The notes: a model not told the origin generated them from the letters alone. 64,000 nt of DNA from Candidatus Absconditabacterales bacterium (GCA_937923605.1 CALDTY010000014.1:24796-88795), one strand, 5' to 3'. Shown: positions 19,635 to 64,000, counted from the first letter of the stretch. A program made the numbers and translations.

Positions 19635-19772
19635 GTAAATTTGGTGAAATTGTAAAAACATATGTATACATTATATATAAAATATAAAATCTGTCAAATT
19701 TTAATTATGAAATATTACTTGATTCTATAATATTAATAGTTATATATATGTTTTAATGTACTAATACGTAAT

Positions 19773-27630: not shown

Positions 27631-27954
27631 ATGAATAGAAAAAGATGAAGACCGAAGAAGTTTCGTACGATTAATTATACCCCTACTCTCACTATACGAG
27701 AACCAGCCGATGGAATAAAAGACAACATAATAGTAAAACTAGGTCACGATGAACTAGAAGCCCTAAGATTAAAGAATATAAACTGACTAGGTGTTGTGAA
27801 ATGAGCTGAACAAATGGGTATATCGAAATCCCTATTCGCCAAGATTTATAAGGACGCAATTACCAAGATAACGAATGCATTAATAAATGGGAGAGCTTTA
27901 CATATTGAAGTATGAAGCCTATGAGATTGAGATTTCCTAAAGCCAATTATGTAG
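27631..27954 (+). CDS. DUF134 (UPF0251) family DNA-binding protein
   Basis: 107-aa code-25 frame: MNRKRGRPKKFRTINYTP...IVKLGHDELEALRLKNINGLGVVKGAEQMGISKSLFAKIYKDAITKITNALINGRAL. Confidence 0.8.
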
Positions 27955-28045: not shown

Positions 28046-29068
28046 ATGAGCAACATTATAAACTATCAATCTGACTCAGATCTTAAAAGACTTACTAATA
28101 AATCATTTTCCGATCTAATTGAAGAATTTCTTTCAACAAAGAAATCTACTCAAACAAAAAGAGCTTACAAAAAAGATATTGCAACTTTTTTTGATGCGAT
28201 AGGACTAAAAACCGTGGGGGAGTTAGCAACACTCCCCGTTTATGAACTTTCAAAAGTTATCTTAAACTATATTGAATCATTTAAAAAGTTTGAAGCTCAA
28301 CGTGAAGACAGAGTTCATAATCCACGCACACTAAATAGGAAGGCATACGCACTCTCCTCTTTCTTTGAATATCTTGTAGCAAACTATGGCTATCCTCGCA
28401 ATCCAGTCAAAGTATATACGCCTTATTCTACTCCAGACAAGACATCTACTGATGATCTTGAAAAAGATGAGGTTGAAGCAATATGGAGCCATGTAAAAGC
28501 AGAAGTAATTATCGCAGAAACTAATTTCCAATTAGTGAGTCGCACGCAACAAAAATTAATATTTAGCTTTCTCATGCTTAGCTTAAGAAGAAATGAGATC
28601 GCTCACCTTAGGTGGGATGATTGGGACAAAAAGAAATGATTTATAACTGTATTTGGGAAAGGTCAAAAGTATAAATATCTTCCACTAAATGAAAAAATGA
28701 AGTCTATACTGGGTGACTATGAATCTCTTAAAAAAAAGCACTGATATATATCATCTTATATATTTTCACCTATTCGCAACAATAGTACCTGAGATAGTGC
28801 GAAACCAATTTCATGAACATATATTTTTAACCTGGTTAAGAAAGTTTGTACTCAACTACAACTAGAATGAGCAATTGATCCTGAAAAGAAAATAACTCCA
28901 CATAGCTTTAGAACAACATTTGTTAAACTAGCTCTAGATAGCTGAAAGACAGATATTGAAATAATGAACACAACAGGCCATAGCACATCGCAAATGGTTA
29001 AGTACTATGATAGTAGAAGTCAATTAGAGGTCAATGCTGCATGAGTAGTGGACGACCTATTAGATTAA
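28046..29068 (+). mobile_element. tyrosine recombinase / phage-type integrase (XerC/D-like)
   Basis: 340-aa code-25 frame. It is the ORF-track piece 28046..28639 extended through TGA codons. Motifs: ...LSLRRNEIAHLRWDDW..., VFGKGQKYKYLPL, ITPHSFRTTFV, GHSTSQMVKYY (catalytic Tyr region). Confidence 0.88.
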
Positions 29069-29075
29069 CAGTGCT

Positions 29076-29462
29076 TTACTTGTTGAGCACATCTTCGAAT
29101 AACTTAATTGCATCTTGGATCTCCTCATCGGAGTATTCAGCTATTTTCTTACCATCCTTTAAAATCACAGTGTCAGGATTTCAGTCAGTTTTGCGAAAAC
29201 TCTCAAACTGCTCTGTTTTCTCATTCCATATCATATTTTCATCAGTAGCGACATCACTGCCTCCTCTACCATTTTGATCTACAATAAGATCATCATCTAA
29301 TTCTCTCAATCAGTCGCTTTCAGTAATGGTCTTAACTCATGGAAACAACCTCTCTTGGATTACTTTGTTTTCTTGTTGAATATTATTATCTGACGATGCT
29401 CTCATCAAATATACAAGAAAGATCATTATTGCAGTAGCTAACACAAAGAGGATATACTTCAT
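29076..29462 (-). CDS. hypothetical protein with N-terminal TM helix (128 aa)
   Basis: MKYILFVLATAIMIFLVYLM..., acidic C-terminal part. Code-25 frame, stop TAA. Lies directly downstream of the T4CP-like gene. Confidence 0.5.
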
Positions 29463-29516
29463 ATTAAACATTATATAAAATAAGTATGACTAAAATTATA
29501 ATAAGTGTATGTAATC

Positions 29517-39000: not shown

Positions 39001-39798
39001 TTATTTAACTATAGGTTTTCGTAAAAATCTTATGATTCAAAACATTGATACAAACTTATGCAAATTCTTGCGGGGATTAGTGACCAATCTCCAAAAAGTC
39101 TCTAAAACTCTTGCCTTAACAACTAGGTCTGGGGCACGATTCTCATATCAGGTAAAATAATCAATTAATCATCATGCGTTAAATACAATCATTTTATGTT
39201 TTGAGAAAGCATCTGAATGCTCCTGTGACCAAATCTCTTGGAATGGAGTTCACGTACAATTTAAAAAGATTTTAATATCGTTATCATCTTTCGCTAAGGA
39301 TTCTTCAAGTCATAACCACGAAAAATTTTCTCATCTTTGTTTATAAAGGCATTGATCACTTCGTTTTACAACTAATCAAAAATGCTCTTCTAAGGCATTC
39401 ACTCCCTTTTCTAAATACCCCTCTCATTTTCATTTAGGGGGATCATAACATTGATAAAGATATAAGGACACAGACGATTTCTTACTGATTTTTGAGATAA
39501 AATAGGGGATAAAGTCTGTTCAATTTAAATTATGAATTGGTTGCTTTCTAATTGATCTATAAAAAAGTTGAAGAGCTATGCCATCAGGGAGTAAAAAATG
39601 TGATTTTTTTAGTGCATTCAGATATAGCATTCTTTTAGCTAATTGTTTAGTGTCTAGATCTGGTTGTTCAAATATCTGCCGTCTCATTGCATTTGCGAAA
39701 TACAAAAAACTAATGATAGCAAATCATTGCTGGGTATATACAGTAATAATATCTTTAACTGCTTGATCAGACTCTCATGTATAAATATTTGATAACAT
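39001..39798 (-). CDS. WecB/TagA/CpsF-family glycosyltransferase
   Basis: 265-aa code-25 frame: FLLPDGIALQLF..., IFLNCTGTPFQEIW, VFNAGGLIDYFTGYENRAPDLVVKARVLETFWRLVTNPRKN. Confidence 0.8.
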
Positions 39799-41477: not shown

Positions 41478-42776
41478 TTAGAAAATATCTGATGATTCTC
41501 TAGACATTCACAAGAGAATACCAAACGAAATCAACAACATATAGTTTACCATACTATCTTCCCATACATGCAAGAAAAATCATTCAATCATTAATCAAAA
41601 AATACCTAGTCCCAATAAAGTAAATAACGGAAGATCGCGAATACTTTTTTCTGTTAAAAGATGCTTTAATGAAGGTGTTAGAAGCACTTTTCGACATAGT
41701 ATCCATAGCAACATTCATACTATTCCAATATCAATCATTATCTGTAGAAATTGACTCTCAGGCATATAGATTCATTCATAGTGAACTGAAGGTCACGAAG
41801 TTCAAAGTCAATATCACATAGGTTGTGATATAAAAGCCTCCCATCATTGCACTCGTGCGCTAAGGTGTCACGCAGTAGATCAAGCTTTGACATAACTTAA
41901 TCAAACAACTAATGAAAATAGAACTCATAATCAAGCAATTCAGAAGAGTAAACTTCAGGTTTTACTTTTTACTAATTTTTTGAAGGATATTAATCACAAA
42001 ACTAAAAGTTGAAAGAAAACAGCAACAAATGCTCATCTAGACAAGGTAAACAATAACGACATGACATATAATGCCCATATTCAAGCCACTAAGTAACGAT
42101 TCTCTTTATCTTCACGCCAAATATGTCTACTTCTTATCAGAATGAAAGAGAACATTCATGCTAAGAAATATCCATAATTATTTGGTCAAGAAAACAATCA
42201 TTGAAGTCTTGGCAAACCTCAGGGTCACGTACGATATCGCAAGGGAGGATTAGATCAAACAAAGTAATCTCATATAGGTCAGTATCAAAATCTAAGAAAA
42301 AGATCTGGCATCATCATTTTTATTCATTGGTATACGGCTCACGTTATAATCACAAGTGCCAAAAATCGATAAATTATTTCTCATATCTGCTTAGTATCTT
42401 TCTTTTTATGCTTTAGCGCAACGTATCACACAAATACTGCACTAAATGTAATAAAAAGATAATGAATATCGTATTTATATCATATTAATATATCAAACAA
42501 AGAACTTCATTTATACCAAGAGAATCAAACTGCCCAAATTAGCAACAATAAGAGCAATAAAAGTTCATATCATCGATCTTCAAAGAAGCTTTCAATCTTC
42601 TTTCGTTCAACATTAAATGCAACTATTAATACCAGTAAAGCTCGGAGTCAATCTCTAACTAGAGCCAGACTCATACTAGAAATCCATTCATTTCAAAAAA
42701 CTCATCGCACTACAATAACGTGATACAAAGCTATTAGGGACAAAAATGAGATTATGATCTTATCAAGATGTTTCAT
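41478..42776 (-). CDS. O-antigen ligase (Wzy_C)-family polytopic membrane protein
   Basis: 432-aa code-25 frame with about 10 hydrophobic helices and the family-typical LFTLSRGAFVAVF segment. Confidence 0.7.
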
Positions 42777-47226: not shown

Positions 47227-48648
47227 TTAAGATAACGAAGATTCAAGCACGGAGGCTATACGAAACATAGTAGCTTCATCTCGATGCTTCGTCATTATCT
47301 GGAATCAAGTTGGGAGAGAATATCCAGCTTCTTTAACATTTCACATTGGGATTGTTGCAGCAGGAATTCATGCAAGATTTGCAATTACAGTATATATATC
47401 GGCTAAATACATTTGAACAGGATCACTACTAAGTTCTCACAATTTCCAAGGTAGGATTGGTGAAGTTGGTCAAATAATAGCATCATAAGAATCAAATATT
47501 CAATCGATTTGTCTTGTCATCATTGATCTTACTTGTTGAGCCTTTTTATAATAAGCATCATAAAATCAAGCTGATAACACATAGGATCATACCATAATTC
47601 TTCTTAGAACTTCCGGTCAAAATCATTGCTGTCTAATTGTCGAATAATAATCATCTATAGATTCGAATGTGTCAGTTTGATTTCACAATCAGAATCTAAT
47701 ACCATCGAACCTAGATAGATTACTACTTACTTCTGCTGGACAAAGAATATAGTACGTAGGAACTCAGTAGGAAAGCAAAGGAACTTCAACTATATCAACC
47801 GTTGCTCATAATTTTTTAGCTATCTCAATTGTATGATCTAATCTATCTCTAATACGATCATCCAATCATTCTGATAAAAATTCTCTCGGTAAAGCTAGCT
47901 TGATTCAAGATAAATCATCTGACTGTAAAGATATATTCCAATCAGTCGTGTCATTAGATCTATATATAGTCATTGCATCAAAATTATCTTGTCAAGAAAT
48001 AGATTCTAACAACAATACAGCATCTTCAACTGTTTTAGTAATTACTCAAGCTTGATCCAAAGATGAAGACATTGCTTGTATTCAATACCTACTCGTTCTT
48101 CAATAAGTTGGCTTTACTCAGACTACTCCACACATTGCCGCAGGCTGTCTAACGCTTCATGCAGTATCAGTTCAGATTGAAGCTAAACATAAATCTCACG
48201 CTACTGATGCAGCGCTTCATCACGAAGAACCTCATGGAACTCTACTAAGATCTAGTGGATTTAATACGTTTCCGAAGTAACATGTTTCTGTACTACTTCA
48301 CATAGCAAATTCATCCATATTAGTTTTTCATATCATTAGTCCTCAAGCCTTTTCTAAATTTTGAATTACAGTACTTGTATAGGGTGAAACAAAATCTTCC
48401 AGCATCTTAGATCAACAGCTAGATATAGTTCATTGAACCAAAAAATTATCCTTGATCGATATGGGAGCTCAACATAATCATAATGAAGAAAACGCTTCAA
48501 TATTGGTTGAAGCGTATTCATTATGTATACGAGCAAAGGCATTAAAAGAATTTCAATCCGCCTTTTGTAAATATCAATCAATAGTTTCCTTAGGTGAAAT
48601 ATCTCATGTCTTTACTCAGTTTATATATCATGCAAGTGTCAGTGACAT
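47227..48648 (-). CDS. gatA: Asp/Glu-tRNA amidotransferase subunit A
   Basis: 473-aa code-25 frame: GAPISIKDNF, GKTNMDEFAMGSSTE, amidase signature [60 protein letters not shown]. Confidence 0.94.
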
Positions 48649-48697
48649 TCATTATTCATTCAGACAAAACGTGGGAAATCAACACTCAAATAAATAA

Positions 48698-49198
48698 CTA
48701 TTCCAATAATTCTTCTAAGACTTCAAATATCTCTTGAACTCATGGATCATCAAAATTTTGTACATCTATCTCTCATGAATCTCAGTTTGATCCATCATCT
48801 ATTTCTTCAATATCTACTGGATCGTTCCTATTATCAGTATCAACAGCATTTTGTTCATCTTGATCATTATCATCTTGATCGTCATTATCATCTTGATCAT
48901 CTTGATCATCTTGATCGTCATTATCATCTTGATCATCACTATCATCTTGATCGTCATTATCATCTTGATCGTCATTATCATCTTGATCCTCGTTATCATC
49001 TTGATCGTCATTATCATCTTGATCGTCATTATCATCTTGATCGTCATTATCATCTTGATCCTCTTGATCGTCATTATCAATTTGATTAACTACATCTCAA
49101 ATACTTGGTGAAGGGTTCTCTTGAGCATTTTTTGCTCCACATCAAATCAGTAAAAATCAAAATAATATACTCAATAAAGTAATAAGTATCTTCTTCAT
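48698..49198 (-). CDS. acidic repeat lipoprotein (166 aa)
   Basis: Signal and lipobox MKKILITLLSILFGFLLIGC, then about 12 tandem DDNDDQ-type hexapeptides and an acidic tail. Code-25 frame, stop TAG. Confidence 0.7.
48857..49078. repeat. tandem 18-bp repeat (plus strand ATCTTGATCGTCATTATC, about 12 copies, some degenerate)
   Basis: Directly visible periodicity. It encodes (D-D-N-D-D-Q)n on the minus strand and produces three long spurious repeat ORFs in other frames. Confidence 0.9.
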
Positions 49199-49279
49199 TA
49201 CAAAAAAATTATTATATAAAAAAACAAACTCTTATATATTACTATAATCAATGTCTAATGCAAGAAAACTGTATAATGT

Positions 49280-50191
49280 TTATAATGTGACTTCAGAAAA
49301 AATCTGGAACATGACTAATAAAAACAACATTACAACAAGCATCACTACAACTATATTTTTTATCAAGACTTTTGCTCTAGATATTCTGTCATCGCTCCCT
49401 CACGATGTTAGAAATACAAATCAAACGTATAAGAAAGAAAGAAAGATTGCTGCACCAAAAAGAAATCAAAGAAATTGAGCCACGTTTACGATTGTATCGA
49501 TGGCTAATCACTCAAAGTCTCAAGATTGTGCAATATAATACAAAAAATCTATTATTTTAATGAAAATTAATGCAATCATCACATTTAATAATCAGGTTCT
49601 AGCAGCGCTAATCTTATCATCCTCTCAACTAGCAAAAATAAGTCTTGATCAATATCGAGCAACCATTGCTATTGCAACGAAAAACGCAAATGCCTTTAAG
49701 AATCATATCAGCTGCAACACGAATCATTCCTCAGCTTTATTGATCAAACTATCATTATCACTTCAAATTAAACCAGAGAAATCTCAAATATTCAACACTG
49801 TGCCTAGAATCCACGTTGCTCAAAAGAATATCACAACTCAATAGATAATGTATAATAAACTCTTATAAGCTCAAACACGTTCTTCAGGATCGTCAGCTCA
49901 AACAACCATCATTCAACCTGTCCAAATTAACATTATAACTAGCAGTCCAACTCAAATATTTCTTATCAAATCTCGAATAGCTCATCAATCACTATCTCAT
50001 ATTGGTGGATAGAATATATCCTTTAAACTTTCAGTAAATGGTTTATTTATATCAATTTCAGATAGAGATGAGTACACTTTATCTCACTTTACTAATGGCG
50101 CAACAAAATCACTTACAAAACTTCACGCGAATACAGGCATCGTGTAGATTCAAATTATGCATATACAGAAGAACTTTAGTAACAATTTCAT
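49280..50191 (-). CDS. polytopic membrane protein (303 aa), possibly VirB6/TrbL-like
   Basis: Code-25 frame with a signal-like N-terminus (MKLLLKFFCICIIGIYTMPVFAG) and about 6 TM helices. Lies immediately downstream of the pilin-like gene. The family call rests on position and topology only. Confidence 0.55.
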
Positions 50192-50211
50192 CGTTTATCA
50201 TGACATAAAAA

Positions 50212-50703
50212 TTAATTTGGAGCGGTTGCTTGAATAGATACTGATAAAGTAATCTTTATTAGATAATAGAATCACGTAGCCACCAACAAACCAAGGAGCA
50301 CATAGAGTAATCTTTTCTTTACATTTGCAGCCTCTTCTGATTGCATAGGTGATAACACTAAGCGAAGTCCATTATAAATAATCAAAATCGTAGCAACAAC
50401 CATAGCTGAAAAAGATAATCGTTGCAAGTAAATTGCCACTTTCCTTCTTAAACTGTCTAAGGTGTTGGCAATAGCGAATTCCTCTCCATAAATTCCTCAT
50501 TCTTTAGTGACTTGATCAAGTTCAGACCAAATAATTTTGTCATTATTTCATTCATTCAATCTATTTACTACATGATCTAACACATCTTTTGGTTCGGCTT
50601 TATAGGAGTCTCGTCATTGTCAAAAAACCAATCACACTACTCAAAATGCTAGTAAATTGATTGTTACTAATCGAAATAGAACGTTTCTTATCTTGTTCAT
50701 CAT
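50212..50703 (-). CDS. TrbC/VirB2-like pilin candidate (163 aa)
   Basis: Signal/TM at the N-terminus (VLFRLVTINLLAFGVVGLVFG) and two C-terminal hydrophobic helices (AMVVATILIIYNGLRLVL, LLYVLLGLLVATGFYYLI), the usual VirB2 layout. Code-25 frame. Confidence 0.5.
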
Positions 50704-51833: not shown

Positions 51834-52868
51834 ATGAAAACAATGTTGCCAAATGTGGAAGATATACTAGCTCAGCTACAAATATGTGATTCTGAAGAAC
51901 AGCTCAGAGATTTTCATTCATCATATCTATGAAAAAAGGGATCAATAAACCTTCTATTCAAAGAAATTAAAGACTTATCTGATGAACAAAAGAAGACTAT
52001 GTGACAAGAAATAAAGTCACTGTTTGACGTAGTGCAAAATGAATTTTGAAAAAGACAAGATAATATAAAGAAAAGATACTGGAATGATAAACTTCAAAAT
52101 GAAATTATTGATATTAGTATTCCAGCAAACAAATTGCCAAGATGATACGCAAACTTACAAAACACCTTAAGAAGAAAGGTTGAAACAATATTCCAAGGAA
52201 TGGGATTTCATATAGAATACGGTCATGATGTCGTGACAGTTGCAGAAAATTTTGAGTCAGTCAACATACCTGCAAGCCATCCTGCTACCGAAATGCATGA
52301 CACATTATATGTAAAATCATCTAGTACTTGATGAGAAAGAAAATTATTAAGAACACATACTTCTGCTCATCAAGTAGAACTAATAAAAAAGCATTGACCA
52401 AAATGTAAGTTTGTTGTACCTTGAAAAGTGTATAGAAATGAAAATATGGACGCGTCTCATGATGTAGTATTTTGGCAGGTAGAATGAGTGGTTATTGATA
52501 AGTGAATTACGTTCTGACACTTTAAACACACTATGGAAGAAGTTCTAAAAGCAATTTTAGAAACAGACACAATAGAACTTAGAATGAGACCAGCATATTT
52601 TCCATTTGTTGAGCCCTGAGTTGAAATTGATGCAAAGACAGAAATAGGATGAAAAGAGAAACGATTAGAAATCTTGTGAGCATGAATGATTCACCCAGTA
52701 GTATTAGAACAAGCTTGACTTGATCCACAAGAATACTCTTGATTTGCTTTCTGATTATGACTTACTAGATTAGTAGCAATAAGGTATGGACTGTGAGACA
52801 TTAGACTTCTAACAAATTGAGATCTAAGATTTTTACACTCATTCCCAGAAGCAACAACGTTATCATAA
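51834..52868 (+). CDS. pheS: phenylalanine--tRNA ligase alpha subunit
   Basis: 344-aa code-25 frame: SHPATEMHDTLY, LLRTHTSAHQV, GKVYRNE, DASHDVVFWQVEG, RPAYFPFVEPG, EILGAGMIHP, GFAFGLGLTRLV. Confidence 0.94.
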
Positions 52869-52885
52869 AACAATTCTACAAACTA

Positions 52886-52917
52886 CAAAAAAGAGTCAGC
52901 GATGACTCTTTTTCTTT
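52886..52917. terminator. bidirectional rho-independent terminator
   Basis: AGAGTCA-GCGA-TGACTCT flanked by an A-run and a T-run, between pheS and the convergent giant gene. Confidence 0.8.
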
Positions 52918-52934: not shown

Positions 52935-55900
52935 CTACTGAGGGACTTGATAGAAGAAATGAGGTGCCAATAACTCAGAGAGACATTGATTCTGCGTCGC
53001 ATGCTCTTCCATTACTTTCATTGCAACTGCACCAAGTGCAACTGACTCCATTCTTGTAAAAGCTCATCTGTTAGATAAAGCTTCAAGTTGATCTAATTTT
53101 TCGTCAATTACATCTTGTTCAACTCACTTAAAATCTCGAAGTGAAGCAATCAAATTAATGGCTGAGACTTCATCTACAATTCAATATGGATTCCTAACAA
53201 ATGAATCATATGTTGATTGATCAATAATTCATCATGCCAATAATCAATCGGCATGAGCCTCATGTTGTTGTGGACCTAAAACTTGTCCTTCTACAAGTCA
53301 TCATCGTCTAGCTAATAATTTTAGATATGCTTGATTAGTAATGTCTTCATTCTCCTGAAAATCTTGATTTTCGTTTCATCATCAATTATAAGAACAACTT
53401 GTTGACTGAAGGTACTCAAATGCATTTACCCTTTCTGGAGGTCGAGATGATAAATCAAATGAAGCAGATGAAGTGTCCGTATTTGGACATTCCATTCAAT
53501 CATCAGAATAACATTCCTTAGGCTCCTCTCGTCATTTCTCTGTATTTGGAACAGTAATAATTGTTACTAACTGGTCTCAAGAGCTAGGTGGTGATTGCAC
53601 TAATCAAGCCAAATTTCATGATGCGGGTCAATTAACTAAACCTGCAAGTCACTGTGTAGTTCAAGCATCAGTTGATCATACTCTTCATGAAATTCAACCT
53701 CATGTATCTCAAGAAGATCTACCACCTCAACTTTGTCATCAATCTCCTCATCAACCCCATTGAGTTGGAACAGGCTCCACAAAGATAGTTGGGTATACTC
53801 TAATAGGATAGCTACATGTTTCAGATCATCAAGTATCATTACTAATTGAAACTTTTATATAATCTGTGATCACCTCTAGAATATCAGGAATCAACCAAGA
53901 TGATCATCCTCATCCAGGATATATAATTTCATCAACTGTTATATCTCAAGGCATGATAACTTGAATTTGTTCTGTAGTTCCTCAAATGAATTCTCATGGA
54001 GAGTATACAATTGCTGGCACTCAACACGATGCAGAAATGATTTGTTTTACTTCACAACTAACAATTTCTTGAGTAAGTGTGTTTTCACATTCCCAGCTCC
54101 AACCAGTAGGAGTCTTTTGGAATACGTTCATTTCCATATCATCATATCACGTACTAGGTTCGTCACAATAAGCTGGCTTAAAGGTAGAAGTTTCTCGACC
54201 ATTAAAGAAGTTTGATACAACTCAATTTTCAGCTATCCATCCACAAACAGTGTCTTCAGTTTCTTGTTCTGCTTCACATTCTACTGCTCAACAATTCCAA
54301 GTTACTATTGTTCAAGGATCTGGAAATGGAGCAAAAATATCTGGGTCTAATCCATTGTCACAGTAATCCTCAGAATCAGTTCACTCATATCATGTTTCAT
54401 CTATAGTATAAACTCTAGCATTATCTCCACACTCCTCTGGTTGTCATACTACAGTAATTACCTGCTCACATTCTGCAGTAGATCACTTTAGATCAGAAAC
54501 AGTTCGCACAAATGTAATTTCATCTCAAATATTATATCCATCATCTCAATTTGTCTTATCAGAATCGTAATAAATCGCTTCATAGAAATTTCAATTTCAA
54601 TTACTGTCCGGTCATTCAATGGTAGATCATGCATCATCAATTAACGCAACATCCTCTATGATCAGACCAGGCTCTGCAAAATTTCATCGATTAACTGTAA
54701 ATGTACTTCATAAATCAATTGTCATATCAGTATCGTTAATTCAACCATAATTAACTCAAGCATCTCAACATTCCACAGGCTCTTGTAATACTTGAATTGT
54801 ACAATAATCTCATCTCTGCATACCAGGACATGTCCAAGCATATTCAGAATTTTCTTGATCATAGGTGACAACTGGATTAGCGAACTCATCGTCACAGAAT
54901 CACTCTAATCATCAAGCAAAAACTAATTGTATAGCCTGTTCTGTATAACTAATTGTAGTTCCAGCAGCAGGACCACACGGATCTTCAGGATCTTCATCTT
55001 CTCATAATTCTATACCATCTGTCAAATCAGGATCTCAGACAATCAATGGCTTAGGGCAAGTCATTGTAATTTCACTTCATCATATCATTGCTGTCATCTC
55101 TATCTTAATCACATACACACCTTCTTCATCATATGTAACCAAAGTAGCATCATCATTTGTAATTCAATTTTGAATAACAGCTGCATTCCAATCAACAGCT
55201 CACAATGAATTTCATGAAGCATCAAATGATATATCAACAGCAGTTCCAACTGGCACTAATCACTCTGTATCAACTCCATTATCTTTAAAAACTAGATTTA
55301 AATCATTACACAATGGAGTTGGGAAAATCTCCAAACTACATTCTTCTAATTCAGCATCTGCATATGTTCCTCATGGATTAACTGGACATTCCCAAGTAGT
55401 GATAAGTGGGAATACCGTACTAGCAAGTATTTCAAAATTTCAAGCTCTAGGTCAAGGTTGAGGTGCATCAATATTCTCATCAAATCTACACCAAGGTTGT
55501 CACTCTGGATAATTTCTTTTACTAAACAATGCTTGATCTGTTTCATTAAGTATACCACATACTCATGGCAAGTATCGCTGACAATGATTTTCTGTATTAC
55601 ACTCTCATTCATTGACTCTATCCCAATACCTATCTCCTTCTCATAGTTCATCAGGATTTTGGTCTTCTGGATCTGATCAACTGTCCTTACAATAAATTAC
55701 ATCTGGACCAAAATTGTCCGGATCATTATTGTAAGCTTCAGGATCATCTTCATCAACTATACATTCATATTCTGGGTATTTACAATTATCTAGACAATTT
55801 GGATCTTTATCTTGCTCACATTCCTCATCATCTGGAGTATCCTCCTCTCAATCTTGTCATGCTTTTTGAACTTCTCAATCTCAGCATCGAATTTTAGTAA

Positions 55901-58568
55901 GCTGACATGTATCTACAACTTCGTTATCGTTAATTCATAAACAGTTCCACTCTCGAGTATTAGAACCTGGATCAAAAGAAATTATTGGGTCTCCTGATCA
56001 ATCCTCCTCTACTAATCATTGTAAACAAGAAGCCATTGCAGGATTATCTTCCAGATCAAAATCTTCATCATATATTGTTTGTGGAGATGGACATTCTCAT
56101 GGCTCACTTTCTTCAGACACTTCAAATTCTTCTTCACATTCTAAAGTATCTCCCTCATCACCTTCGCCTTCATAAGAAAAAGTAACAGTATACTCTCATC
56201 ATGATCACGTGCTATATTGTTGTGTATATGATCAAGCAAGAGGGTTAATAATTGTTCATCAGTCTCCCCAAACCAATAATGTTCATGAAATAGCAAGAGT
56301 TACAGTAAATTCTTCATTAATTCATCAAGTTAAAGGGGTTAAGGTGAAGATATCAGCACAGGAAGTTTGTGGATATTCACAGATAGAAGTATCCTGATAA
56401 GTAGCACTTGGATTGAAATTTAGCGCTAATGGATCTATACATCCTTCTATCTCATCACATGTTCCTGGTAATGGATCTAATGCTGGGTAACTACATATCT
56501 CATTTATACATTTTTTGTCTTCACATTCTGTATCTGTTCCATCTGGACAATCTGCATCTGTTACGCAATCTGGATACTCACATCCTACATTAACATTTGC
56601 TGCAGGATCAAAATTTGTTGCATTTGGATCCGTACATCCTTCTATCTCTGCACAATGAGAATTACCTGGGTATGTATCGCCAACACAACATTCTATACTA
56701 CTATCACATATACAATTTGTATTGTTTAAATATGTATCTCATGGGCAACAAAGAATTGTAGCATCGCATATACAATTCGTGTTTCATGGGTAACTATCTC
56801 CATCACAACATGTGATTGAACTATCACATATACAATTTGTGTTTCATGGATACGTGTCTCCATCACAACACGTAATTGCACTATCACATATACAATTTGT
56901 ATTTCATGGATATGTGTCTCCATTACAACATTCTACACTACTGTCACATATTTCTGGACAATTTGGATTTCACGGATAACTATTACCATCACAGCATTCA
57001 ATTGTTGGGTTACATGTTATACTACAATTTGTATTTGGTGGATTTGTTTCTCCATTACAACATTCCAATGCTGGATCACACACACAATTTGTATTGTTTA
57101 AATATGTATCTCATGGGCAACACGTCGTTGATTGATCACATATACAATTTTGATTAGCTGGGTAAACATCTCCATCGCAACACGTAATTGCACTATCACA
57201 TATACAATTTGTGTTTCATGGGTACGTGTCTCATGGACAACAAACTGAAGCACTATCGCAACATGAAGGATCATTCGTCTCATCTGGAACATGATCACAC
57301 ACTCATGATTGACAAATGTCGTCTGTACAAATGTTTCCATCATTAAAACAACTGCTTCAATCATCTAAGTCAGTAAACTCACATCAATTAGTTGGATCAC
57401 ATGAGCCTGTAGTACATTCATTATTATCATCACACACAACAGGATCAGAGTAATCACAAACTCAATTATCACATACATTTTCAGTACATAGATTACTATC
57501 ATCACAAACAACACTGGTAAGTGTAAATTCTAACGAAGTAGCAGCACACGAATTTCAATCATCTAATGTGGCTGTGTATGTCCCTGGTCATAAGTTTCAA
57601 AATACTCAAGTTGAATTTGTAATAGTTCCTACTGTAAAAGAATACGGTTGAGTTCATCAAGATGCTGATAAGACTATAGATCCACCAACTCAAGCACAAT
57701 TAGGATTGTTAGATGATCATGTGAGTTCCAGTTCTGTAGGCTCTTCGATCTGTGAAAACTCTGTAAAATCGCAAGTTGCATCATTATATCCTATTGGATG
57801 TATGGTAAGAATATATCAACTTCAAACGATATTTGGTTCCAGTCACGTAACTGATGAAGTTGTAGGTCAGTGTGATCGTTGATAACTAAAATCACCTAAG
57901 TCGAAGGCAGAAGTTTCTACTAAAGTAAGAGAACCATCATCATCGCCAAAGCAAGTTATATCATTTCAATTTAAAGCAAACTCAGTGTTTATGTCATAAT
58001 GAGCAGGATGATCTGTTATGACCTGATTTGGACATAAACATAAACAGTCACCTGGAGTATTTGGATCTTCAACATATGGCATATCTATTGCTCATCAATC
58101 AAATGTAGCACAGGTATCTCACACAAGTGAACCAGGAATATTATCACAAGAAATTGGTGGTTCACAAGAGCAAGTACCATTTGAAGAAGAAACTAATAAT
58201 GGTGCCGCATTAGCTGAAATAAAATCAAATCATCAACCACTAGATTGTTCTGTACAAGAAAATGGGTAATCATCATAGTATATTGGTTTCCAGAGGGGGA
58301 CAGCTCAGGAATCATCTCTAATGTAATCAACATCCTGAAAATCACAAATATTCACATTACTGTTTTCACAGATAATTAATGCTGATGTAAGCGCTCACAG
58401 ATATGCACTTGATCAAAAATCACAAGTCCCGCATGGTATAGGTAGATCTACTTCAACTCAATTATCAATACAGGTTCACGAAGCAAATACACTTCAACTC
58501 GTAAAAAAAAGCAGAGAAATGATAGAAAGTAATCGAGTCTTATTCCGTCATTTACGAGAAAATAACAT
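52935..58568 (-). CDS. giant secreted Cys-rich surface protein (1877 aa) with SprB-like repeats, 20-aa Cys repeat array, Gly-rich linker and C-terminal tail
   Basis: I translated all 5634 nt in one code-25 frame and found no TAA or TAG. Signal peptide MLFSRKGRNKTRLLSIISLLFFTSGSVFA. SprB-like units (ITCFGDDDGSLTLV..., NCAGVGGSIVLSASGGTQPYSFTVG...GTYTATLDDGNSC). Ten copies of CC(D/P/N)GDTYPGNTNCICDS. Linker WGGGGDGGQSGGGRSSGDTGGGISG. Stop is TAG at 52935-52937. Confidence 0.85.
56641..57240. repeat. tandem 60-bp repeat, about 10 copies (coding, Cys-rich 20-aa unit)
   Basis: Near-identical 60-bp units, for example plus-strand CTATCACATATACAATTTGT... at 56701, 56821 and 56881. Each encodes CCxGDTYPGNTNCICDSxIx on the minus strand. 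Confidence 0.9.
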
Positions 58569-58683
58569 AAAAGAAAGCGTTTAGAAATTAAAAAAGATAT
58601 ATATCTGTAATGTACGTCTCATCATATGTTAATCAAGTTAATTATGGCTTAGTAAGGCTCAATATAGCTGTTTTAAGTTGACT

Positions 58684-58711
58684 TAAAAGAAAATCCCTAA
58701 ATAATTAGGGA
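58684..58711 (-). terminator. rho-independent terminator (minus strand) after the upstream giant gene
   Basis: TCCCTAA-loop-TTAGGGA hairpin followed on the minus strand by TTTTCTTTT, about 35 nt after the TAA at 58745-58747. Confidence 0.7.
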
Positions 58712-58744
58712 CTTCTTTTATAATAGTTATATAGATATCTTATA

Positions 58745-61700
58745 TTACTGAATGGATTGTAGATTATCTTCTCGATAAGATTGATTTTCAGTTGCAATAT
58801 TTCACTTTGACGCATCTTCATCATATGAGTTTTGAGCGTGGAGAATAGCTTCTTGAGTACCTACTTGCTCTGCATGTCATATATATGCAAGTGGAGTATG
58901 TAAGACAGAAGGTTTAACTTCAAGAAGATAATCATACATAAATTCCATAAGATAAATTGCGTCTGATCTTAGGAATTCTTGACCTTCATATACTTCAATA
59001 GCTTGGTATAATTCAAGAATTTTCTGATTATCTATTTGCTCAACATGATGATCAACAACAGTTACAAGCAACATAAGCGCAGTCCTCATGTCGACAGGGC
59101 TGTCTAGCTCTGTCCTAGTTAGATTAAATTCTCAATATCAAGTATCAAATTCATCTTCTAGCGCCTCTAGATATACTTCTCATCGATGTCTTCAACTTTC
59201 TTCATACTCTATCGCTGTTTCATGAAAGTCATTACGATCTAACATAAGAGTTCTGGCGAAAAGCTTGAATGTTTCTGCTAGAGTAGTTTCTCTATTAGGT
59301 TGGAAGTATTTACTAGTATCTGATGTTCAGTTTGTTAAACAAATTTTTTCGTTCAACTTATTTACTGTATCTTCAAGATCTCATCATATATCTACAAAGT
59401 TATTACTTTGGTATTCATGCCCATCCTTATACTTACATCAAGAATCAATAACCTCTCTCATGACCTCTAGCTCTTCAGTAGTCTTTCAAGTATCTACGTC
59501 AACTACTGTCAATAACTCTAAGACTTGTATAGCTTGCATAGATTCTGCTGCCACTTGATGTGTCTGGGAAATTGCTTGCGCTTGATAATCTGGATCCAAA
59601 TGATTTGGAATTCAATCATCATCATGATCATTATTTCATAAGAAGTATTGATACTCTTCAGTGTTACCTGCTCTTGATCACAAAGCTCATCAATTTCATT
59701 TATTTTCATCATCAACAATCAATGTTGGGTATATTCTAATTGGATAGCTACATAATTCAGATCAACCTGTATTATTACTAATATGAACCCTAATATAATC
59801 TGTAATTACTTCGTATGTTTCAGGTACACGCCATGATGAATTAGATGTTCCTCATGGATAAATAATCTCATCAATAGTTACATCTCATAGCATACTTACA
59901 TCTATTTGTTCTATAGTTCCACCAATAAAATCTCATGGAGAGTAGACAATAGCTGGTAATCCACAAGAAGCAGATATTACTTGTTTCACTTCACAAGTCT
60001 GCACTTCTTCTGTAAGCTTGTTTTCACACTCCCAACTCCATCAAGTAGAAGTCTTTTGAAATGAATTCATATTCATGTCATCATAACCTGTACTTGGTTC
60101 ATCACAATATGCAGGTTTATATGTAGGTGTATCCCATCCGTTGAAGAAATTCGATACTATTCAATTTTGTGCTATCCATCCACATACTGTATCTTCTGTT
60201 TCTCTATATGCTTCACATTCTACATCACCACATGACCAAGTCTCAGTAGATCAAGGATTTGGAAATGATGCAACATTACTAAGACCATCACCAGAAGTAC
60301 AATAGTCTTGTTCAGCTATTCCATCATATGCATCTTCTTGCACTGTAAACACTCTTGCATTATCTCAACATTCATCAGGTTGAGCTACAACTTCCAGTAC
60401 TTGAGTACAATTTGCTGATGATCACAATGTATCTTCAACAGTCCATTCTACGACTATCTGATCTTCTGATTCATATACTCATGATTGAATTCGCTCCGTA
60501 TGACCATTTGATCATATGTTAGCATTTCATGCAATGGATTGTACATTCTTTCAAGAGACAATATATCCTGGCTCAGGAATCCAATTAACAGAGAATGTAC
60601 TTCATAAATCTATCGTCATTTCTGGTTCATTAATTCATCCATAACTAATTCATGCATCGTCACATTCAACAGTTTCCTGTGTAACGTTTAATGTACAATA
60701 GTCTCATCTTTCCATGTTTGGACATGTCCAAGCGTATTCTAGGTTCTCTTGGTCAAATGTAATTACTGGATCAAAGTCCTTTTCACAGAATCACTCTAAT
60801 CATCATGCAAAAACAAGTTGTATAGCCTGTTCTGTATAATTAATTGTCATCCCGTCAACTGCTCAGCAATGATCTCATTCATTCTCATCTTCTCAAAGCT
60901 CTATAACATCAGTTATGTCTGGATCTCAGACAATAAGAGGCTTAGGACAAATCATAGTAATTTCATCAGATCAAATAGTTGCCGTCATCTCAATCTTAAC
61001 AACATATACTCATTCATCTTCATAGGTAACTAGAGATGAATTATTAGTAGTCACTCAATTTTGAATAACATCAGCTGTCCAATCTACTACACCTAATGAA
61101 GTACCTGATTCATCAAAAGAAATATCAACAGTTGTTCATTCTGGTACGACTCAATTTGTAAGGAGATTATTTTCTTTGAATTCAAGATTCAGATCGTCAC
61201 ATACTGGAGTTGGATAAATATCTAGTTCACATTCTACCAGTTCCGTATCTGCATATGTTCCTCAAGGATTCTCTGGGCATTCCCATGTCGTTTTAAGTGG
61301 GAAAGTAGTACTTGCTTGTATTTGGAAATTTCATGCTCAAGCTCTTGATATAGGTGCATCTATATTCTCATCATGCATACACCAAGGTTGACCTTCAGGA
61401 TATTGTCTTTTACTAAACAGTGCCTGATCAGTCATGTGTAGTATTCCACATGCTCCAGGGACATACCACTGACAACGGTTATTAGGTTCACATCATCATT
61501 CCTCTACTTTATCTCGATATCTATCAGTTTCAGTCAAATTCTCTTGATCTCATGGATCATCTGTTGTGTCTTTACAATACACAACATCAGGCTCAAAATT
61601 TAATGGATTATTATTGTATGGATCTGGATCATTATCATCAATAATACACTCAAAAAGCTCAGCTTTACATTCTGAATTACAGTTAGCGTCTACTGCAGGC

Positions 61701-64000
61701 TCACATTCTTCGTCATCTGAAGTATTTAATAATCCATCTTCTCCTTCTTCTTGAACTTCTTCATCACCACATCGAATCTTAGTTACTCAACATCAAACTG
61801 AATTTGTTGGATCTTCTTCGTCAATACATCCCCAAGATCGTGAAGTAACTTCTCAACTAGGAGTATCGTCATCAGCATCAAAAGAATCTTCATCAAACTC
61901 TGTTCCTTCTGGACATAGATGAGGTCCAGGAATAATAGAATATGATTCGTTATACACAGTAATATTATCATAATCTTCTAAACATTCTAATCATACAAAA
62001 CTTTCTGGACATGGCGGTATTGTAAATTCTCATTCAGCAGCACACTGTCATTCAGATCAAGGAACTACGTCAAATGTATAAGTTTCTCATCATTCAAAAA
62101 TAGCTATTGTAAACTCATCTGCATTTGTTGATGATCAGTCTCAACCGTAAACAGGATTTCAATTACCATCATATATTGTTATTTCTGCTCATCATTGAAC
62201 TCCTCCGAGATCTATAGTCACAGACCCTTCTGGATCTCAAGTTGAACAATCATCCCCTCCTACAATTGGTGTTGGTAATTTCAGTGCATCACATCAAGAA
62301 GAAGTCGTCTCACATTCTACTTCAAGTGTTACTTCTCATTCACATCCATTATCATCCTGGATTGCGTATGTATAAAAGCCGTCTGACAATCACTCGACAA
62401 TATCACCTTCAGAATACTCAATACCATCAACAATGATTTGCGCATCTCCAATTGCCCCAATAACTTCTCAAAACTCTATTGATCCATTGGCATCACAGGT
62501 TCAATTTTCTCAGGTCGCACTAGTAATAACATTTTGACTTAAAATCATGTTTTCTGCATACCCACATTCAGTAAGACATACTGGCAATATAAATTGCTCA
62601 GATATTCATGGAGAGACACACTCTTGACCATTTTCAGTATAGGTTACTGTAGGAATAAGTGTTCCTGGAGTCACAAACGATTGATTCGCTCATACTAGTG
62701 AAGGATCATTTCGTTCTACAACTACATCAGTTTGATCATTAGTAACTGATCGTGATACATTCATAGTTCATGGAATATATTGCCCATCTGCATCACAGGT
62801 TATTTGAGTAGATGAAACATCAATATCTAAAGTACAGTCACAATTATTATTCATCAATACATCAGCCTGCGCGCTATTACTTTCACATCAATTTTCATCT
62901 GTAACAGTCACAGTGTATGTATCAGTTATGGTAGCCTCAAAACTTTCTCATCATCACACTGAATCTCCAGCACTATTTTCTCGAGCATATGTCCATCAAG
63001 CTTGTCCATCATTTACCTGTAAGGATGCACTATCTTCTCCACAAATCACTGTTACGGAGTTTGTGTTTAAAGTAATAGATGGTTCTTCAGGTCAGGTAAT
63101 CTCTACACTCACTTCGTCGTTACACTCTACAGTATCATTATTTTCATCAGTTACACTTACTGTTGCTGTATATGTTGTGGTTCCGTTTGGCAAATTAGAT
63201 AAAGCAAATGAAGTTGAACCATTCGCAAGACTCGAAGAATCTCACGAGCTTAATGTAACGGTAGATCAGTCTTCTGCATTTCATCAACTTACAAGTAAAG
63301 TTACAGATCCAAGATCTTCTGAACAAGTATTATTATTAGTTATTTCTCCATCAATAGTGATTGCAAAACCATCACATGCTTCACAATCTTGTGCTGATGG
63401 TGCAGTAAGATCATAATTAGCAGATATTTCACATGAAGGATCAGCTCCAAGAACTTCTATAATTATTTCTCATCATCAAACATCTCAGTCTATAATAATT
63501 GGGAAATCAGAATAAGAATAACTCTGTCAAATTTGACTTCCATCTACTGAGAGTATATATAATGTTTCATCATCTCAACTTACTGGTGGAGTAAATGATA
63601 CTTCAATTTCTCATTTAGTTTCTCCACAAGCTAAAACAGCTTCATCAAGCACCACTTCAAATCAAGAACAATCAAATGGTTCAGAACATTCTGCAGGCAT
63701 ATCAAGCTCTACATTAATATCCATTAGACACTCAAGTCACATCTGTGATCAATAGGTTAGGTTTACTAAGTAATAATCTCAATCTACTTCTTCCAATACA
63801 GTCGCTGTTTCAAATGGATCGTGTCATCGCTCAAAACTATCTACTCCATCAAGTGAACCAAGAGTTACTGTTCATCATCATGCAGTACCATCATCAAGAC
63901 AAAAGAGTCCCATTCATTCTAAAGTCGTTCCAGGCATTGCAGGAATATTTACATCAATCGATGCATCACCTAAGCATCCCATTTCATCAGTAGCAGTGAT
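58745..64000 (-). CDS. giant secreted surface protein, paralog of 52935..58568 (more than 1751 aa, 5' end beyond the window)
   Basis: I translated all 5256 nt to the window edge in one code-25 frame with no TAA or TAG. The N-terminal part has SprB-like ...VTDENGC / ATDEMGC / QDDNGC units. The middle section of about 600 aa is collinear with the neighbouring gene (TCEVKQVISASCGLPAIVYSPGDFIGG versus SCEVKQIISASCGVPAIVYSPGEFIGG). It has a TSP3-like DHDDDGIPNHLDPD and a different C-terminal tail. Stop is TAA. Confidence 0.85.

What the first reader, a model, noticed from the sequence alone, without database searches (positions are those of the whole stretch)
52935..64000. Tandem pair of giant paralogous Cys-rich surface-protein genes with a shared core and different C-terminal tails
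Two head-to-tail minus-strand genes occupy 11 kb and are separated only by a terminator and a promoter region of 176 bp. One is 1877 aa; the other is more than 1751 aa and truncated by the window edge. A segment of about 600 aa is collinear and clearly homologous, roughly 53840-55700 versus 59760-61560. Examples are WSWECENTLTQEIVSCEVKQIISASCG versus WSWECENKLTEEVQTCEVKQVISASCG, and MTCPKPLIVGDPDL versus MICPKPLIVGDPDI. After a conserved ...ITDYI(K/R)V.ISN(D/N)TGGSE.CSYPIR.YPT segment, each gene continues through a different linker into an unrelated tail. Gene 52935.. has a Gly-rich linker. Gene 58745.. has an Asp-rich TSP3-like linker, DHDDDGIPNHLDPD. Both tails contain segments that loosely resemble SLH-type wall-binding motifs (FQPNRETTLAETFKLFARTL; FVRNPYGIVDEVSAINLIASL). 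The N-terminal parts carry SprB-like repeats, a Bacteroidota hallmark, yet here they are full of TGA-Gly codons, unlike the T9SS gene. This could be a diversifying adhesin family for attachment to hosts.
Basis: partly seen in the sequence, partly recalled or inferred. Interest (0 to 1): 0.65.

Follow-up and report, generated by a model that had tools for sequence, protein, structure and literature searches.

The report
Tandem giant wall-anchored surface-protein genes
Two neighbouring giant genes of an uncultured, recoded (TGA = glycine) SR1/Absconditabacterales bacterium encode cysteine-rich secreted surface proteins that share a 725-residue core and end in very divergent copies of a known cell-wall anchor (SLH), so they are a new example of the giant surface proteins already described in this predatory lineage.

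Summary
With TGA read as Gly (code 25), the minus strand carries gene A (52935-58568, 1877 aa, Sec signal peptide) and gene B (58745-64000, at least 1751 aa, 5' end cut by the window). They are 176 bp apart, and each is followed by a hairpin plus T-run.

- **Shared core:** about 725 aa (A 871-1596, B 720-1428), 63-65% identical. All 32 cysteines are conserved. dS is saturated and dN/dS is about 0.19, so this is an old duplication under purifying selection, not an assembly artefact.
- **Organism:** PheS places it in Ca. Absconditabacterales.
- **Relatives:** syntenic giant genes next to pheS in three related genomes share only the C-terminal ~190-aa tail, and in one case part of the core.
- **Main correction:** the two "unrelated" tails are distant homologs. 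The tail family is a divergent triple-SLH wall-binding module (hhalign 96% probability, P = 2.5e-9, clean controls), although no single tail reaches Pfam's SLH model.
- **Other domains:** SprB repeats are confirmed in A only. TSP3, HYR and a T9SS sorting domain are not supported.
- **Core and linkers:** orphans in every database I could search.

Giant surface proteins and SLH proteins are already reported in this lineage, so this is a new member of a known kind. A role in host adhesion is plausible but untested.

The parts
52935..58568 (-). Gene A, complete CDS, 1877 aa under code 25 (130 TGA-Gly codons), stop TAG at 52935-52937
   Evidence: Stop-to-stop frame with TGA as sense; translation and Met start; convergent with pheS at 51834-52868
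58479..58568 (-). A residues 1-30: Sec-type signal peptide MLFSRKGRNKTRLLSIISLLFFTSGSVFAS
   Evidence: The only hydrophobic stretch in A (Kyte-Doolittle > 1.6 at residues 13-34). It has a basic n-region and a VFA-S site (read from the sequence). The cleavage site is inferred.
57519..57971 (-). A residues 200-350: SprB-type Ig-like repeats (two stretches)
   Evidence: Pfam SprB PF13573 at 33.1 bits, above the gathering score of 28, when the segment is scanned alone. The hit is masked in the full-length scan.
56649..57248 (-). A residues 441-640: ten tandem ~20-aa units of CC.GDTYPGNTNCICDS.I.
   Evidence: Repeat listing. TRF finds 60- and 120-bp arrays at 56667-56951 and 57108-57224 with 73-78% matches, so the copies have diverged.
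53781..55958 (-). A residues 871-1596: shared core, copy A (32 Cys)
   Evidence: Single collinear BLASTP HSP with E = 0; MAFFT identity 65%; 32 of 32 Cys conserved; no Pfam, NCBIfam or PDB match
54429..54701 (-). A residues 1290-1380: hypervariable patch inside the core (25-37% identity; the matching patch in B is 60368-60595)
   Evidence: Sliding-window identity and dN/dS; coordinates
53517..53780 (-). A residues 1597-1684: Gly-rich linker
   Evidence: Read from the sequence. Homology to B stops sharply after YPIR(V/I)YPT.
52938..53516 (-). A residues 1685-1877: C-terminal tail, a divergent triple-SLH-like module (repeat 3 carries FTRME)
   Evidence: 32% identity to the tail of the syntenic L002 giant, E = 2.5e-26; five-member family alignment; hhalign against independent SLH modules 96.2%, P = 2.5e-9; merged alignment
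52887..52914 (-). Terminator-like hairpin plus T-run after gene A. It reads as a hairpin on both strands and lies between the convergent genes pheS and A.
58569..58744 (-). 176-bp spacer between gene B and gene A
   Evidence: No minus-strand promoter-like site was found inside it.
58690..58715 (-). Terminator-like hairpin (11-bp stem, 4-nt loop, T-run), starting 30 nt after B's stop codon
58745..64000 (-). Gene B, 3' part of the CDS, at least 1751 aa (102 TGA-Gly codons), stop TAA at 58745-58747; the 5' end lies beyond the window
61844..64000 (-). B residues 1-719: Ig-like repeat region, unrelated to A's N-terminal part but homologous to the N-terminal part of the L002 giant
   Evidence: B 77-455 against L002 giant 17-397: 34.5% identity, E = 1e-38. 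Only sub-threshold Ig_7 (24.3 bits against 27.3), Big_3_5 and Ca_tandemer hits. No SprB hit.
59717..61843 (-). B residues 720-1428: shared core, copy B
59480..59716 (-). B residues 1429-1507: Asp-rich linker with one DHDDDGIPNHLDPD motif
   Evidence: Read from the sequence. No TSP_3 hit at E <= 10.
58748..59479 (-). B residues 1508-1751: C-terminal tail, the most divergent member of the same triple-SLH-like family (repeat 1 carries TTLAE, repeat 3 carries FLRSD)
   Evidence: A profile built without B scores B at 20.6 bits, against at most 7.9 bits for 500 shuffles. An independent SLH HMM gives 11.1 bits, above all 2000 shuffles. An 84-aa TGA-free piece is predicted all-helical at low confidence.

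Best explanation
Genes A and B are old tandem paralogs in the chromosome of a Candidatus Absconditabacterales (SR1) bacterium that reads TGA as glycine. Each encodes a giant, modular protein that is exported through Sec and stabilised by disulfides.

Layout, from N- to C-terminus:
1. A variable ectodomain. In A this is SprB-type Ig-like repeats plus cysteine-repeat arrays. In B it is a different set of Ig-like repeats.
2. A conserved 725-residue core with 32 cysteines and no known relatives.
3. A flexible low-complexity linker.
4. A C-terminal module of about 190 residues that is a very divergent triple-SLH domain.

Proposed mechanism:
- The SLH-like module binds a peptidoglycan-linked wall glycopolymer non-covalently.
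- The linker crosses the wall.
- The roughly 1600-residue ectodomain projects outward as part of the fibrous coat typical of this lineage.
- The distal variable modules contact the host or prey cell.
- The two paralogs keep the same stalk-like core but carry different tips and differently diverged anchors.

Shown: the gene structure, the genetic code, the paralogy, purifying selection on the core, the synteny, homology of the tails to each other, and profile-level homology of the tail family to SLH modules.

Inferred: export and signal-peptide cleavage, disulfide bonding, wall binding and its ligand, and the role in host attachment.
For: - **Code and genes:**
- **Signal peptide in A, with no TM helix or LPXTG elsewhere:**
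- **Core paralogy:** 63-65% identity over about 725 aa, all 32 Cys conserved, dS about 1.5 (saturated), dN/dS 0.19.
- **Taxonomy:** PheS is 70-75% identical to Absconditabacterales MAGs.
- **Synteny and family:** giant minus-strand genes lie next to pheS in L002, L003 and L083. They carry the same tail (E = 2.5e-26, 1e-11 and 1e-5 against A). L003 has a weak collinear match to the core, and L002 shares B's N-terminal module.
- **A and B tails are homologous:**
- **Tail against SLH:**
  - The top three PDB hits for the tail profile are the SpaA SLH module, with E = 0.24 improving to 0.02 when a fifth member is added.
  - hhalign against an independent alignment of 8 SLH modules gives 96.2%, P = 2.5e-9, 152 columns across all three repeats. 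Without SpaA it gives 94.6%.
  - Controls: reversed tails 0.2%, best of 60 column shuffles 1.4%, core against SLH 0.1%.
  - The register puts F.D on KF.DV, C.YNG on GIIxG, and an invariant Arg in FTRME/FLRSD on TRAE.
- **Context:** WecG/TagA-family and Wzy_C genes in the window.
- **Literature:** giant surface proteins and 8-10 SLH-domain genes per genome in Absconditicoccaceae (PMC8080830, PMC13059738); SLH hallmarks (PMC6081394).
Against: - No single tail matches Pfam's SLH model, even at E <= 10.
- A's tail alone scores only 0.4% in hhalign, and the A+B pair alone 43%. The SLH assignment therefore rests on a five-sequence family profile.
- The canonical Arg of TRAE is lost in repeats 1 and 2 of both A and B, and SLH-Trp13 is absent from both. 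The ligand may therefore not be the classical pyruvylated polymer.
- No csaB gene is in the window.
- No structure could be predicted for the recoded sequences. The one foldable fragment gave a low-confidence helical model with no fold match.
- Nothing tests adhesion.
- B's N-terminus, and therefore its signal peptide, lies outside the window.
Confidence: 0.72

Rival explanations
1. Same architecture and anchoring, but the proteins are structural coat or S-layer-type components that build or protect the envelope, rather than host-specific adhesins.
For: SLH modules classically anchor S-layer proteins (PMC6081394). The core is under purifying selection with every Cys conserved, as expected of a structural scaffold. 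No recognised adhesin or lectin domain passes threshold apart from two SprB repeats.
Against: The family members swap whole ectodomain modules between closely related genomes while PheS stays 70-75% identical. That pattern is more typical of interaction surfaces than of a lattice-forming protein. Proteins of about 1900 aa with long flexible linkers do not resemble typical S-layer subunits (my own knowledge).
Confidence: 0.15
2. The conserved 725-residue orphan core is a catalytic or membrane-active module, such as a prey-envelope-degrading or pore-forming device, displayed on the surface by the SLH anchor. Adhesion would then be secondary.
For: The core is the only part kept in both paralogs and is under purifying selection. 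It has no detectable relative, so no function can be excluded. Giant genes of other predatory bacteria have been linked to cell-wall degradation (bioRxiv 10.1101/2023.11.21.568195).
Against: There is no catalytic motif or enzyme-family hit at any threshold. The core looks like a string of small disulfide-bonded modules and beta-rich segments. The syntenic giants of L002 and L083 lack it altogether, so it is not essential to the family.
Confidence: 0.08
3. The C-terminal tail is not a wall-binding SLH module. It would be an unrelated helical domain, for example one that docks onto another surface protein or acts as a lineage-specific export or sorting signal, and the SLH similarity would be convergent or spurious.
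For: Pfam's SLH model is never hit. Two of the three TRAE arginines and Trp13 are lost. The HMM-to-PDB E-values are only 0.02-0.6. The tail has its own invariant Cys pair, which classical SLH domains lack.
Against: The profile-profile match is full-length, collinear over three repeats, has P = 2.5e-9 and survives all controls. SLH proteins are documented in this lineage (PMC13059738).
Confidence: 0.05

Closest known systems
Giant cell-surface proteins of Absconditicoccaceae predators and epibionts (Vampirococcus lugosii, Absconditicoccus praedator, Strigamonas methylophilicida)
   Same: Same order-level lineage and the same genetic code. Proteins of roughly 1400-4200 aa with signal peptides or TM segments, thought to form the fibrous surface and mediate host recognition. 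Several SLH-domain proteins per genome (PMC8080830, PMC13059738).
   Different: The described proteins were annotated through recognisable domains such as FN3, integrin, PKD and Ca-stabilised adhesin repeats. Here nearly everything is unannotatable: the core is an orphan, and the SLH anchor is too divergent for Pfam or NCBIfam.
SLH-anchored surface proteins of Bacillota (P. alvei SpaA and SlhA, B. anthracis Sap)
   Same: A module of about 180 aa made of three tandem SLH repeats. The tail family aligns over all three repeats, including the F.D start, the GIIxG glycine of repeat 1 and a TRAE-like Arg in repeat 3. SpaA also has unequal repeats: TRAE, TVEE and TRAQ (PMC6081394).
   Different: The module is C-terminal here, not N-terminal as in SpaA and Sap. 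Identity is only about 10-15%. Trp13 and two of the three arginines are lost. An invariant Cys pair has been added. Neither the ligand nor csaB has been identified.
SprB / CHU_C-type giant adhesins of Bacteroidota
   Same: A carries two SprB repeats above the Pfam threshold. B has a near-threshold Ig_7 (CHU_C-associated) domain.
   Different: There is no C-terminal T9SS sorting domain, the organism is different, and the anchoring is different. The only Por_Secre_tail signal is a 16.7-bit match inside B's core.
DUF4215 / Myxococcus-type cysteine-rich repeat proteins
   Same: The syntenic L002 giant carries at least 14 DUF4215 repeats (208 bits) on the same tail. A has its own cysteine-repeat arrays at the equivalent position.
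   Different: A and B themselves give no DUF4215 hit. A's CC.GDTYPGNTNC units are a different repeat.

Membership tests
SLH domain (Pfam PF00395 / PROSITE PS51272) | Match to the curated family profile | tested here: not met
   No SLH hit for A, B or any of the five tails, whether whole or as isolated repeats, even at E <= 10
SLH domain (Pfam PF00395 / PROSITE PS51272) | Detectable homology to genuine SLH modules | tested here: met
   hhalign of the five-tail alignment against 8 independent SLH modules gives 96.2%, P = 2.5e-9 (global mode 97.4%, without SpaA 94.6%). Controls score 0.1-1.4%. The top three PDB hits for the tail profile are SpaA SLH, E = 0.02. Three of the five tails outscore all 2000 shuffles against an SLH HMM.
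SLH domain (Pfam PF00395 / PROSITE PS51272) | Three tandem repeats forming one module of about 170-180 aa | tested here: met
   The alignment covers template positions 1-181 and query positions 15-174 collinearly, with three repeat units visible
SLH domain (Pfam PF00395 / PROSITE PS51272) | Conserved GIIxG glycine (SLH-Gly29) | tested here: inconclusive
   Repeat 1 has an invariant G in C[LIS][YFT]NG that aligns with the GIIxG glycine in all five tails. In repeat 2 of A the sequence is GGIIDQ, with Q at the Gly29 position.
SLH domain (Pfam PF00395 / PROSITE PS51272) | TRAE motif with the ligand-binding Arg (SLH-Arg43) | tested here: inconclusive
   Repeat 3 has an invariant Arg (A FTRME, B FLRSD, others ITRAD, FTRNA, LNRRE). 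In repeats 1 and 2 the Arg is lost in both A (ITNQ, VDEV) and B (TLAE, VDMR).
SLH domain (Pfam PF00395 / PROSITE PS51272) | Conserved Trp (SLH-Trp13) | tested here: not met
   Absent from A and B at the aligned positions. Present only in repeat 1 of the L002 tail.
SLH domain (Pfam PF00395 / PROSITE PS51272) | Three-pronged spindle fold | not testable with these tools
   The structure tools refuse code-25 translations. An 84-aa TGA-free fragment of B's tail is predicted helical at pLDDT 63, with no fold match.
SLH domain (Pfam PF00395 / PROSITE PS51272) | Binding to a pyruvylated wall polymer, with csaB in the genome | not testable with these tools
   Only 64 kb of the genome is available. A WecG/TagA-family gene (39001-39798) and a Wzy_C gene (41478-42776) are present, and no csaB was seen.
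SprB repeat (PF13573) | Profile match above the gathering score | tested here: met
   A residues 190-360 score 33.1 bits against a cutoff of 28, in two stretches. This holds for A only; B has no SprB hit at E <= 10.
T9SS cargo (Por_Secre_tail C-terminal sorting domain) | Sorting domain at the extreme C-terminus | tested here: not met
   The only signal is a 16.7-bit match (cutoff 27) at B 928-1006, inside the core. The C-termini are the SLH-like tails.
Thrombospondin type 3 repeat (PF02412) | Profile match, or tandem DxDxDG...C repeats | tested here: not met
   No hit at E <= 10 for B's tail and linker. There is a single DHDDDGIPNHLDPD motif. TSP3-like tandem motifs can be read in the L083 relative, but Pfam gave no hit there at E <= 0.01.
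HYR domain (PF02494) | Profile match | tested here: not met
   No hit in A or B. HYR is found only in the unrelated gene at 9790-13212.
Sortase-anchored surface proteins | C-terminal LPXTG motif followed by a hydrophobic segment | tested here: not met
   No LPXTG-like motif and no C-terminal hydrophobic window in A or B
Giant surface proteins of Absconditabacteria (a descriptive class, PMC8080830 and PMC13059738) | Longer than about 1400 aa, with an export signal and interaction-type domains, in an Absconditabacterales genome | tested here: met
   A is 1877 aa with a signal peptide and SprB repeats. Lineage is set by PheS. B meets the length criterion, but its N-terminus is missing.

The most novel reading that the evidence does not exclude
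The 725-residue, 32-cysteine core, kept under purifying selection in both paralogs and detectable elsewhere only as a faint collinear match in one related genome, could be a new fold with a specific job at the predator-prey interface. The tandem pair, with the same core but exchanged tips and differently diverged SLH anchors, could be a cassette system that sets host range in SR1 predators. A smaller point is that the tail profile may reveal a class of SLH anchors invisible to Pfam, so the SLH-anchored surface proteome of code-25 bacteria may be systematically under-counted.
Probability: 0.12. Interest if true: 0.65.

Novelty: new member of a known kind. Interest (0 to 1): 0.35.

Why it matters
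Absconditabacteria are obligate epibiotic predators, and what determines their host recognition is unknown. Giant surface proteins are the leading candidates.

This locus offers three things:
- A clean example of how such genes evolve: a conserved disulfide-rich stalk, with tips and middles exchanged between closely related genomes.
- Evidence that the proteins' wall anchor is an SLH module so diverged that standard annotation misses it.
- A practical warning. In all three indexed protein searches these genes, and their relatives in published MAGs, were absent. Tools that assume table 11 cannot process them.

A code-25-aware search with the tail profile built here would catalogue this surface proteome.

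Tried and rejected
- **Indexed protein search (5.8 billion clusters).** Queries with the core, the joined tails and the four-tail alignment all returned zero hits, not even the query proteins themselves. The collection appears to lack these genes, so absence of hits there is not evidence of rarity.
- **GTDB genome scan with the core patterns WSWECEN and GYDDM[EN]M.** It gave 54 chance matches and no relative.
- **Viral contigs, searched with the core and the tail.** Nothing found.
- **PDB sequence search with the core and with single tails.** Nothing significant.
- **NCBIfam.** Nothing above threshold.
- **Structure of the only foldable tail fragment.** AF2 gave pLDDT 63, and Foldseek's best E-value was 2.5, so the result is uninformative.
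- **jackhmmer for SLH proteins within the fetched loci.** None found. I took SLH modules from plasmids instead.
- **Sample provenance.** Searches for ERR9287627 and the MAG accessions found no relevant paper.
- **Assembly artefact or collapsed repeat.** Rejected. The copies are only 68% identical at nucleotide level with saturated dS, and the internal repeats are 73-78% matched.
- **TGA = Trp (code 4).** Rejected because TGA pairs with Gly and GGN codons.
- **T9SS cargo, sortase substrate, TSP3 and HYR.** All rejected; see the membership table.
- **Recent horizontal origin of A or B from a standard-code donor.** Rejected, because TGA makes up 60-67% of their Gly codons along the whole length.

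Full report
**1. The observation**

Under table 11 the 11-kb region has no ORF longer than 167 aa. When only TAA and TAG are treated as stops, the window goes from 6 to 62 frames of at least 150 codons. Two giant minus-strand frames appear, at 52935-58580 and 58745-64000.

TGA encodes glycine:
- It supplies 73% of all Gly codons in the window.
- It writes the GxGxxG motif of the Pyr_redox gene at 14004.
- In the A/B alignment, 67 of 86 residues opposite a TGA are Gly.
- In 21 conserved Gly columns, one paralog has TGA and the other has GGN.

Gene A starts at the Met at 58568, four codons after an upstream stop, and ends at TAG 52935-52937. It is 1877 aa. Gene B is open at the window edge, is at least 1751 aa, and ends at TAA 58745-58747. 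The spacer is 176 bp.

Each gene is followed by a hairpin plus T-run on its own strand, at 58715-58690 and 52914-52887. I found no promoter-like site on the minus strand within the spacer.

**2. The paralogy**

BLASTP gives a single collinear HSP. True homology runs from A 871 to 1596 and from B 720 to 1428. In window coordinates that is 53781-55958 and 59717-61843.

- Amino-acid identity is 63-65% and nucleotide identity is 68%.
- Homology ends sharply after YPIR(V/I)YPT.
- All 32 cysteines of the core are conserved and none is unpaired. Cys density is 4.4%, against 1.3% in the other window proteins.
- Synonymous sites are saturated (pS 0.65, dS about 1.5), and dN/dS is 0.19.
- One hypervariable patch drops to 25-37% identity (A 1290-1380, B 1136-1211).

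The duplication is therefore old and the core is under purifying selection. An assembly artefact is excluded. The internal 60-bp repeats of A have also diverged, at 73-78% matches. The N-terminal parts of A and B show no significant similarity to each other.

**3. Organism and surroundings**

The closest PheS sequences to the one at 51834-52868 (+, convergent with gene A) are 70-75% identical. They come from Candidatus Absconditabacterales MAGs and a marine metagenome contig.

Other neighbours are two CPR-type T4SS pilin-like genes, gatA, recJ, a Wzy_C-type gene, a WecG/TagA-family glycosyltransferase, a T4SS coupling protein and an integrase. An independent Logan assembly (run ERR9287627) is 100% identical to window 1-23212, but its contig ends near window position 27690, before the giant genes.

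**4. Domains**

The full-length Pfam scan found nothing in A. Scanning pieces showed that A 190-360 carries SprB repeats above the gathering score (33.1 bits against 28), so the composition of the whole protein had masked them.

B has only sub-threshold Ig-like hits: Ig_7 at 24.3 bits against 27.3, Big_3_5 and Ca_tandemer. No SLH, TSP3 or HYR hit appears in either protein at E <= 10. The Por_Secre_tail signal is a weak match inside B's core, not a terminal sorting domain.

The core and the tails match nothing in Pfam, NCBIfam or the PDB sequences. A has a typical Sec signal peptide. Neither protein has a TM helix or an LPXTG motif elsewhere.

**5. Relatives**

The indexed protein collection returned nothing for the core, the tails or the tail alignment, not even the query proteins. 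Pattern scans for the core in GTDB genomes and viral contigs were also empty.

Using PheS as a synteny anchor and my own code-25 translation, I found giant minus-strand genes next to pheS in three related genomes:
- **L002** (at least 1916 aa). Its C-terminus matches A's tail (32% identity, E = 2.5e-26). Its N-terminal Ig-like region matches B's N-terminal region (34.5% identity, E = 1e-38). Its middle is an array of DUF4215 cysteine repeats.
- **L003** (at least 727 aa). It matches the end of the core plus the tail of A (E = 1e-11) and of B (E = 5e-4). It also gives a weak collinear match to the core profile (E = 6e-6).
- **L083** (2285 codons). It shares only the tail (E = 1e-5).

So while PheS stays above 70% identical, these genes keep a common C-terminal domain and exchange or lose everything else.

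**6. The tails**

Compared pairwise, the A and B tails look unrelated (z = 3.1). A profile built from the A, L002 and L003 tails scores B at 20.6 bits, against at most 7.9 bits for 500 shuffled B tails, over about 190 residues. The tails are therefore distant homologs.

The five-member alignment has invariant positions C10, C41, N44, G45, F53, K66, R70, L92 and R155.

Evidence that the tail family is a divergent triple-SLH module:
- Searched against the PDB sequences, the tail profile's three best hits are all the SLH module of P. alvei SpaA. The E-value was 0.24 with four tails and 0.02 with five.
- I built an independent SLH alignment from SpaA and seven plasmid-encoded Bacillus and Paenibacillus SLH proteins.
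- hhalign of the tail family against that alignment gives 96.2% probability, P = 2.5e-9 and 152 columns across all three repeats. Global mode gives 97.4%. Without SpaA it gives 94.6%.
- Controls: reversed tails 0.2%, best of 60 column shuffles 1.4%, the A/B core against SLH 0.1%.
- Single tails reach only 0.4-41%, which explains why Pfam misses them.

In the merged alignment:
- F.D aligns with KF.DV.
- The invariant G of C.YNG aligns with the GIIxG glycine.
- The invariant Arg of repeat 3 (A FTRME, B FLRSD) aligns with the TRAE arginine.
- The arginines of repeats 1 and 2 and the conserved Trp are lost in both A and B.

SLH proteins (8-10 per genome) and surface-targeted proteins over 1500 aa are reported in Absconditicoccaceae (PMC13059738). 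Giant proteins are linked to the fibrous surface of Vampirococcus (PMC8080830).

**7. Interpretation**

A and B are giant, disulfide-rich surface proteins exported through Sec. Each has a variable distal ectodomain, a shared core, a flexible linker and a C-terminal SLH-type wall anchor. They are tandem paralogs within a fast-evolving, modular family located next to pheS in this lineage.

Wall binding, the ligand and host adhesion are all inferred. A structural-coat role, a catalytic core and a non-SLH tail remain as rivals with lower probability.

**8. Verdict**

This is a new member of a known kind, of moderate to low interest.

Its main value is as an example of modular evolution in these genes, of an SLH anchor that standard annotation misses, and of how code-25 genes escape standard databases and tools.

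Noticed in passing
window 9790-13212 (+): This 1140-aa gene has a Por_Secre_tail (T9SS sorting) domain, a Dockerin_1 domain and an HYR domain. It contains 0 TGA codons and 76 GGN glycines, in a genome where TGA supplies 73% of Gly codons (binomial P about 4e-44). Its GC and GC3 are not unusual. The same gene with the same flanks is present in an independent Logan assembly. This suggests recent acquisition from a standard-code donor, and a T9SS signal would have no obvious use in this organism.
   Followed up: partly
window 20200-20826 (+): This 208-aa gene has 1 TGA against 10 GGN glycines (P about 2e-5). It is a second gene depleted in TGA. Three small genes have no TGA at all (357-728, 6849-7298, 8464-8811), but each has only 4-5 Gly codons.
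   Followed up: no
window 15258-19661 (-): This is a third giant gene (1467 aa, 119 TGA codons). It has a hydrophobic N-terminus, Gly-rich stretches and no Pfam hit. It is unrelated to A and B by BLAST and lacks the SLH-like tail.
   Followed up: partly
window 58745-64000 (gene B): TGA makes up 60% of the Gly codons in gene B, against 73% window-wide (P about 1e-4). The lowest shares are at B residues 451-600 and 1201-1350. The cause is unknown.
   Followed up: no
window 39001-39798 (-) and 41478-42776 (-): These are a WecG/TagA-family glycosyltransferase and a Wzy_C (O-antigen ligase/polymerase-like) membrane protein. They are candidate enzymes for the wall glycopolymer that an SLH-type anchor would bind. 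No csaB was seen in the window.
   Followed up: partly
window 28046-31946, 49280-50703: These regions hold a phage-type integrase, a T4SS coupling protein (TrwB/TraG-like, 809 aa) and two T4SS-pilin-like genes, consistent with the monoderm-type T4SS described in Patescibacteria.
   Followed up: no
window 48606-49247 (+): This open frame encodes a long (SSLSSG)n-type Ser/Gly repeat. It lies between gatA and the pilin-like gene, and an open frame on the opposite strand overlaps it. It is unclear which strand, if either, is coding.
   Followed up: no
L003 2076-3308 (-): In this related MAG, a 411-aa secreted protein with duplicated Cys-rich units (…CRYGEKKGCCPE[IV]ICDGG…) sits between pheS and the giant gene. 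It has no counterpart in the window.
   Followed up: no
genes A and B; L002, L003 and L083 giants: Technical points. The full-length Pfam scan hid a SprB hit that is above threshold. The 5.8-billion-cluster protein index returned none of these giant genes, not even those of published MAGs. Several tools reject code-25 translations. Negative database results for recoded lineages should therefore be read with caution.
   Followed up: yes
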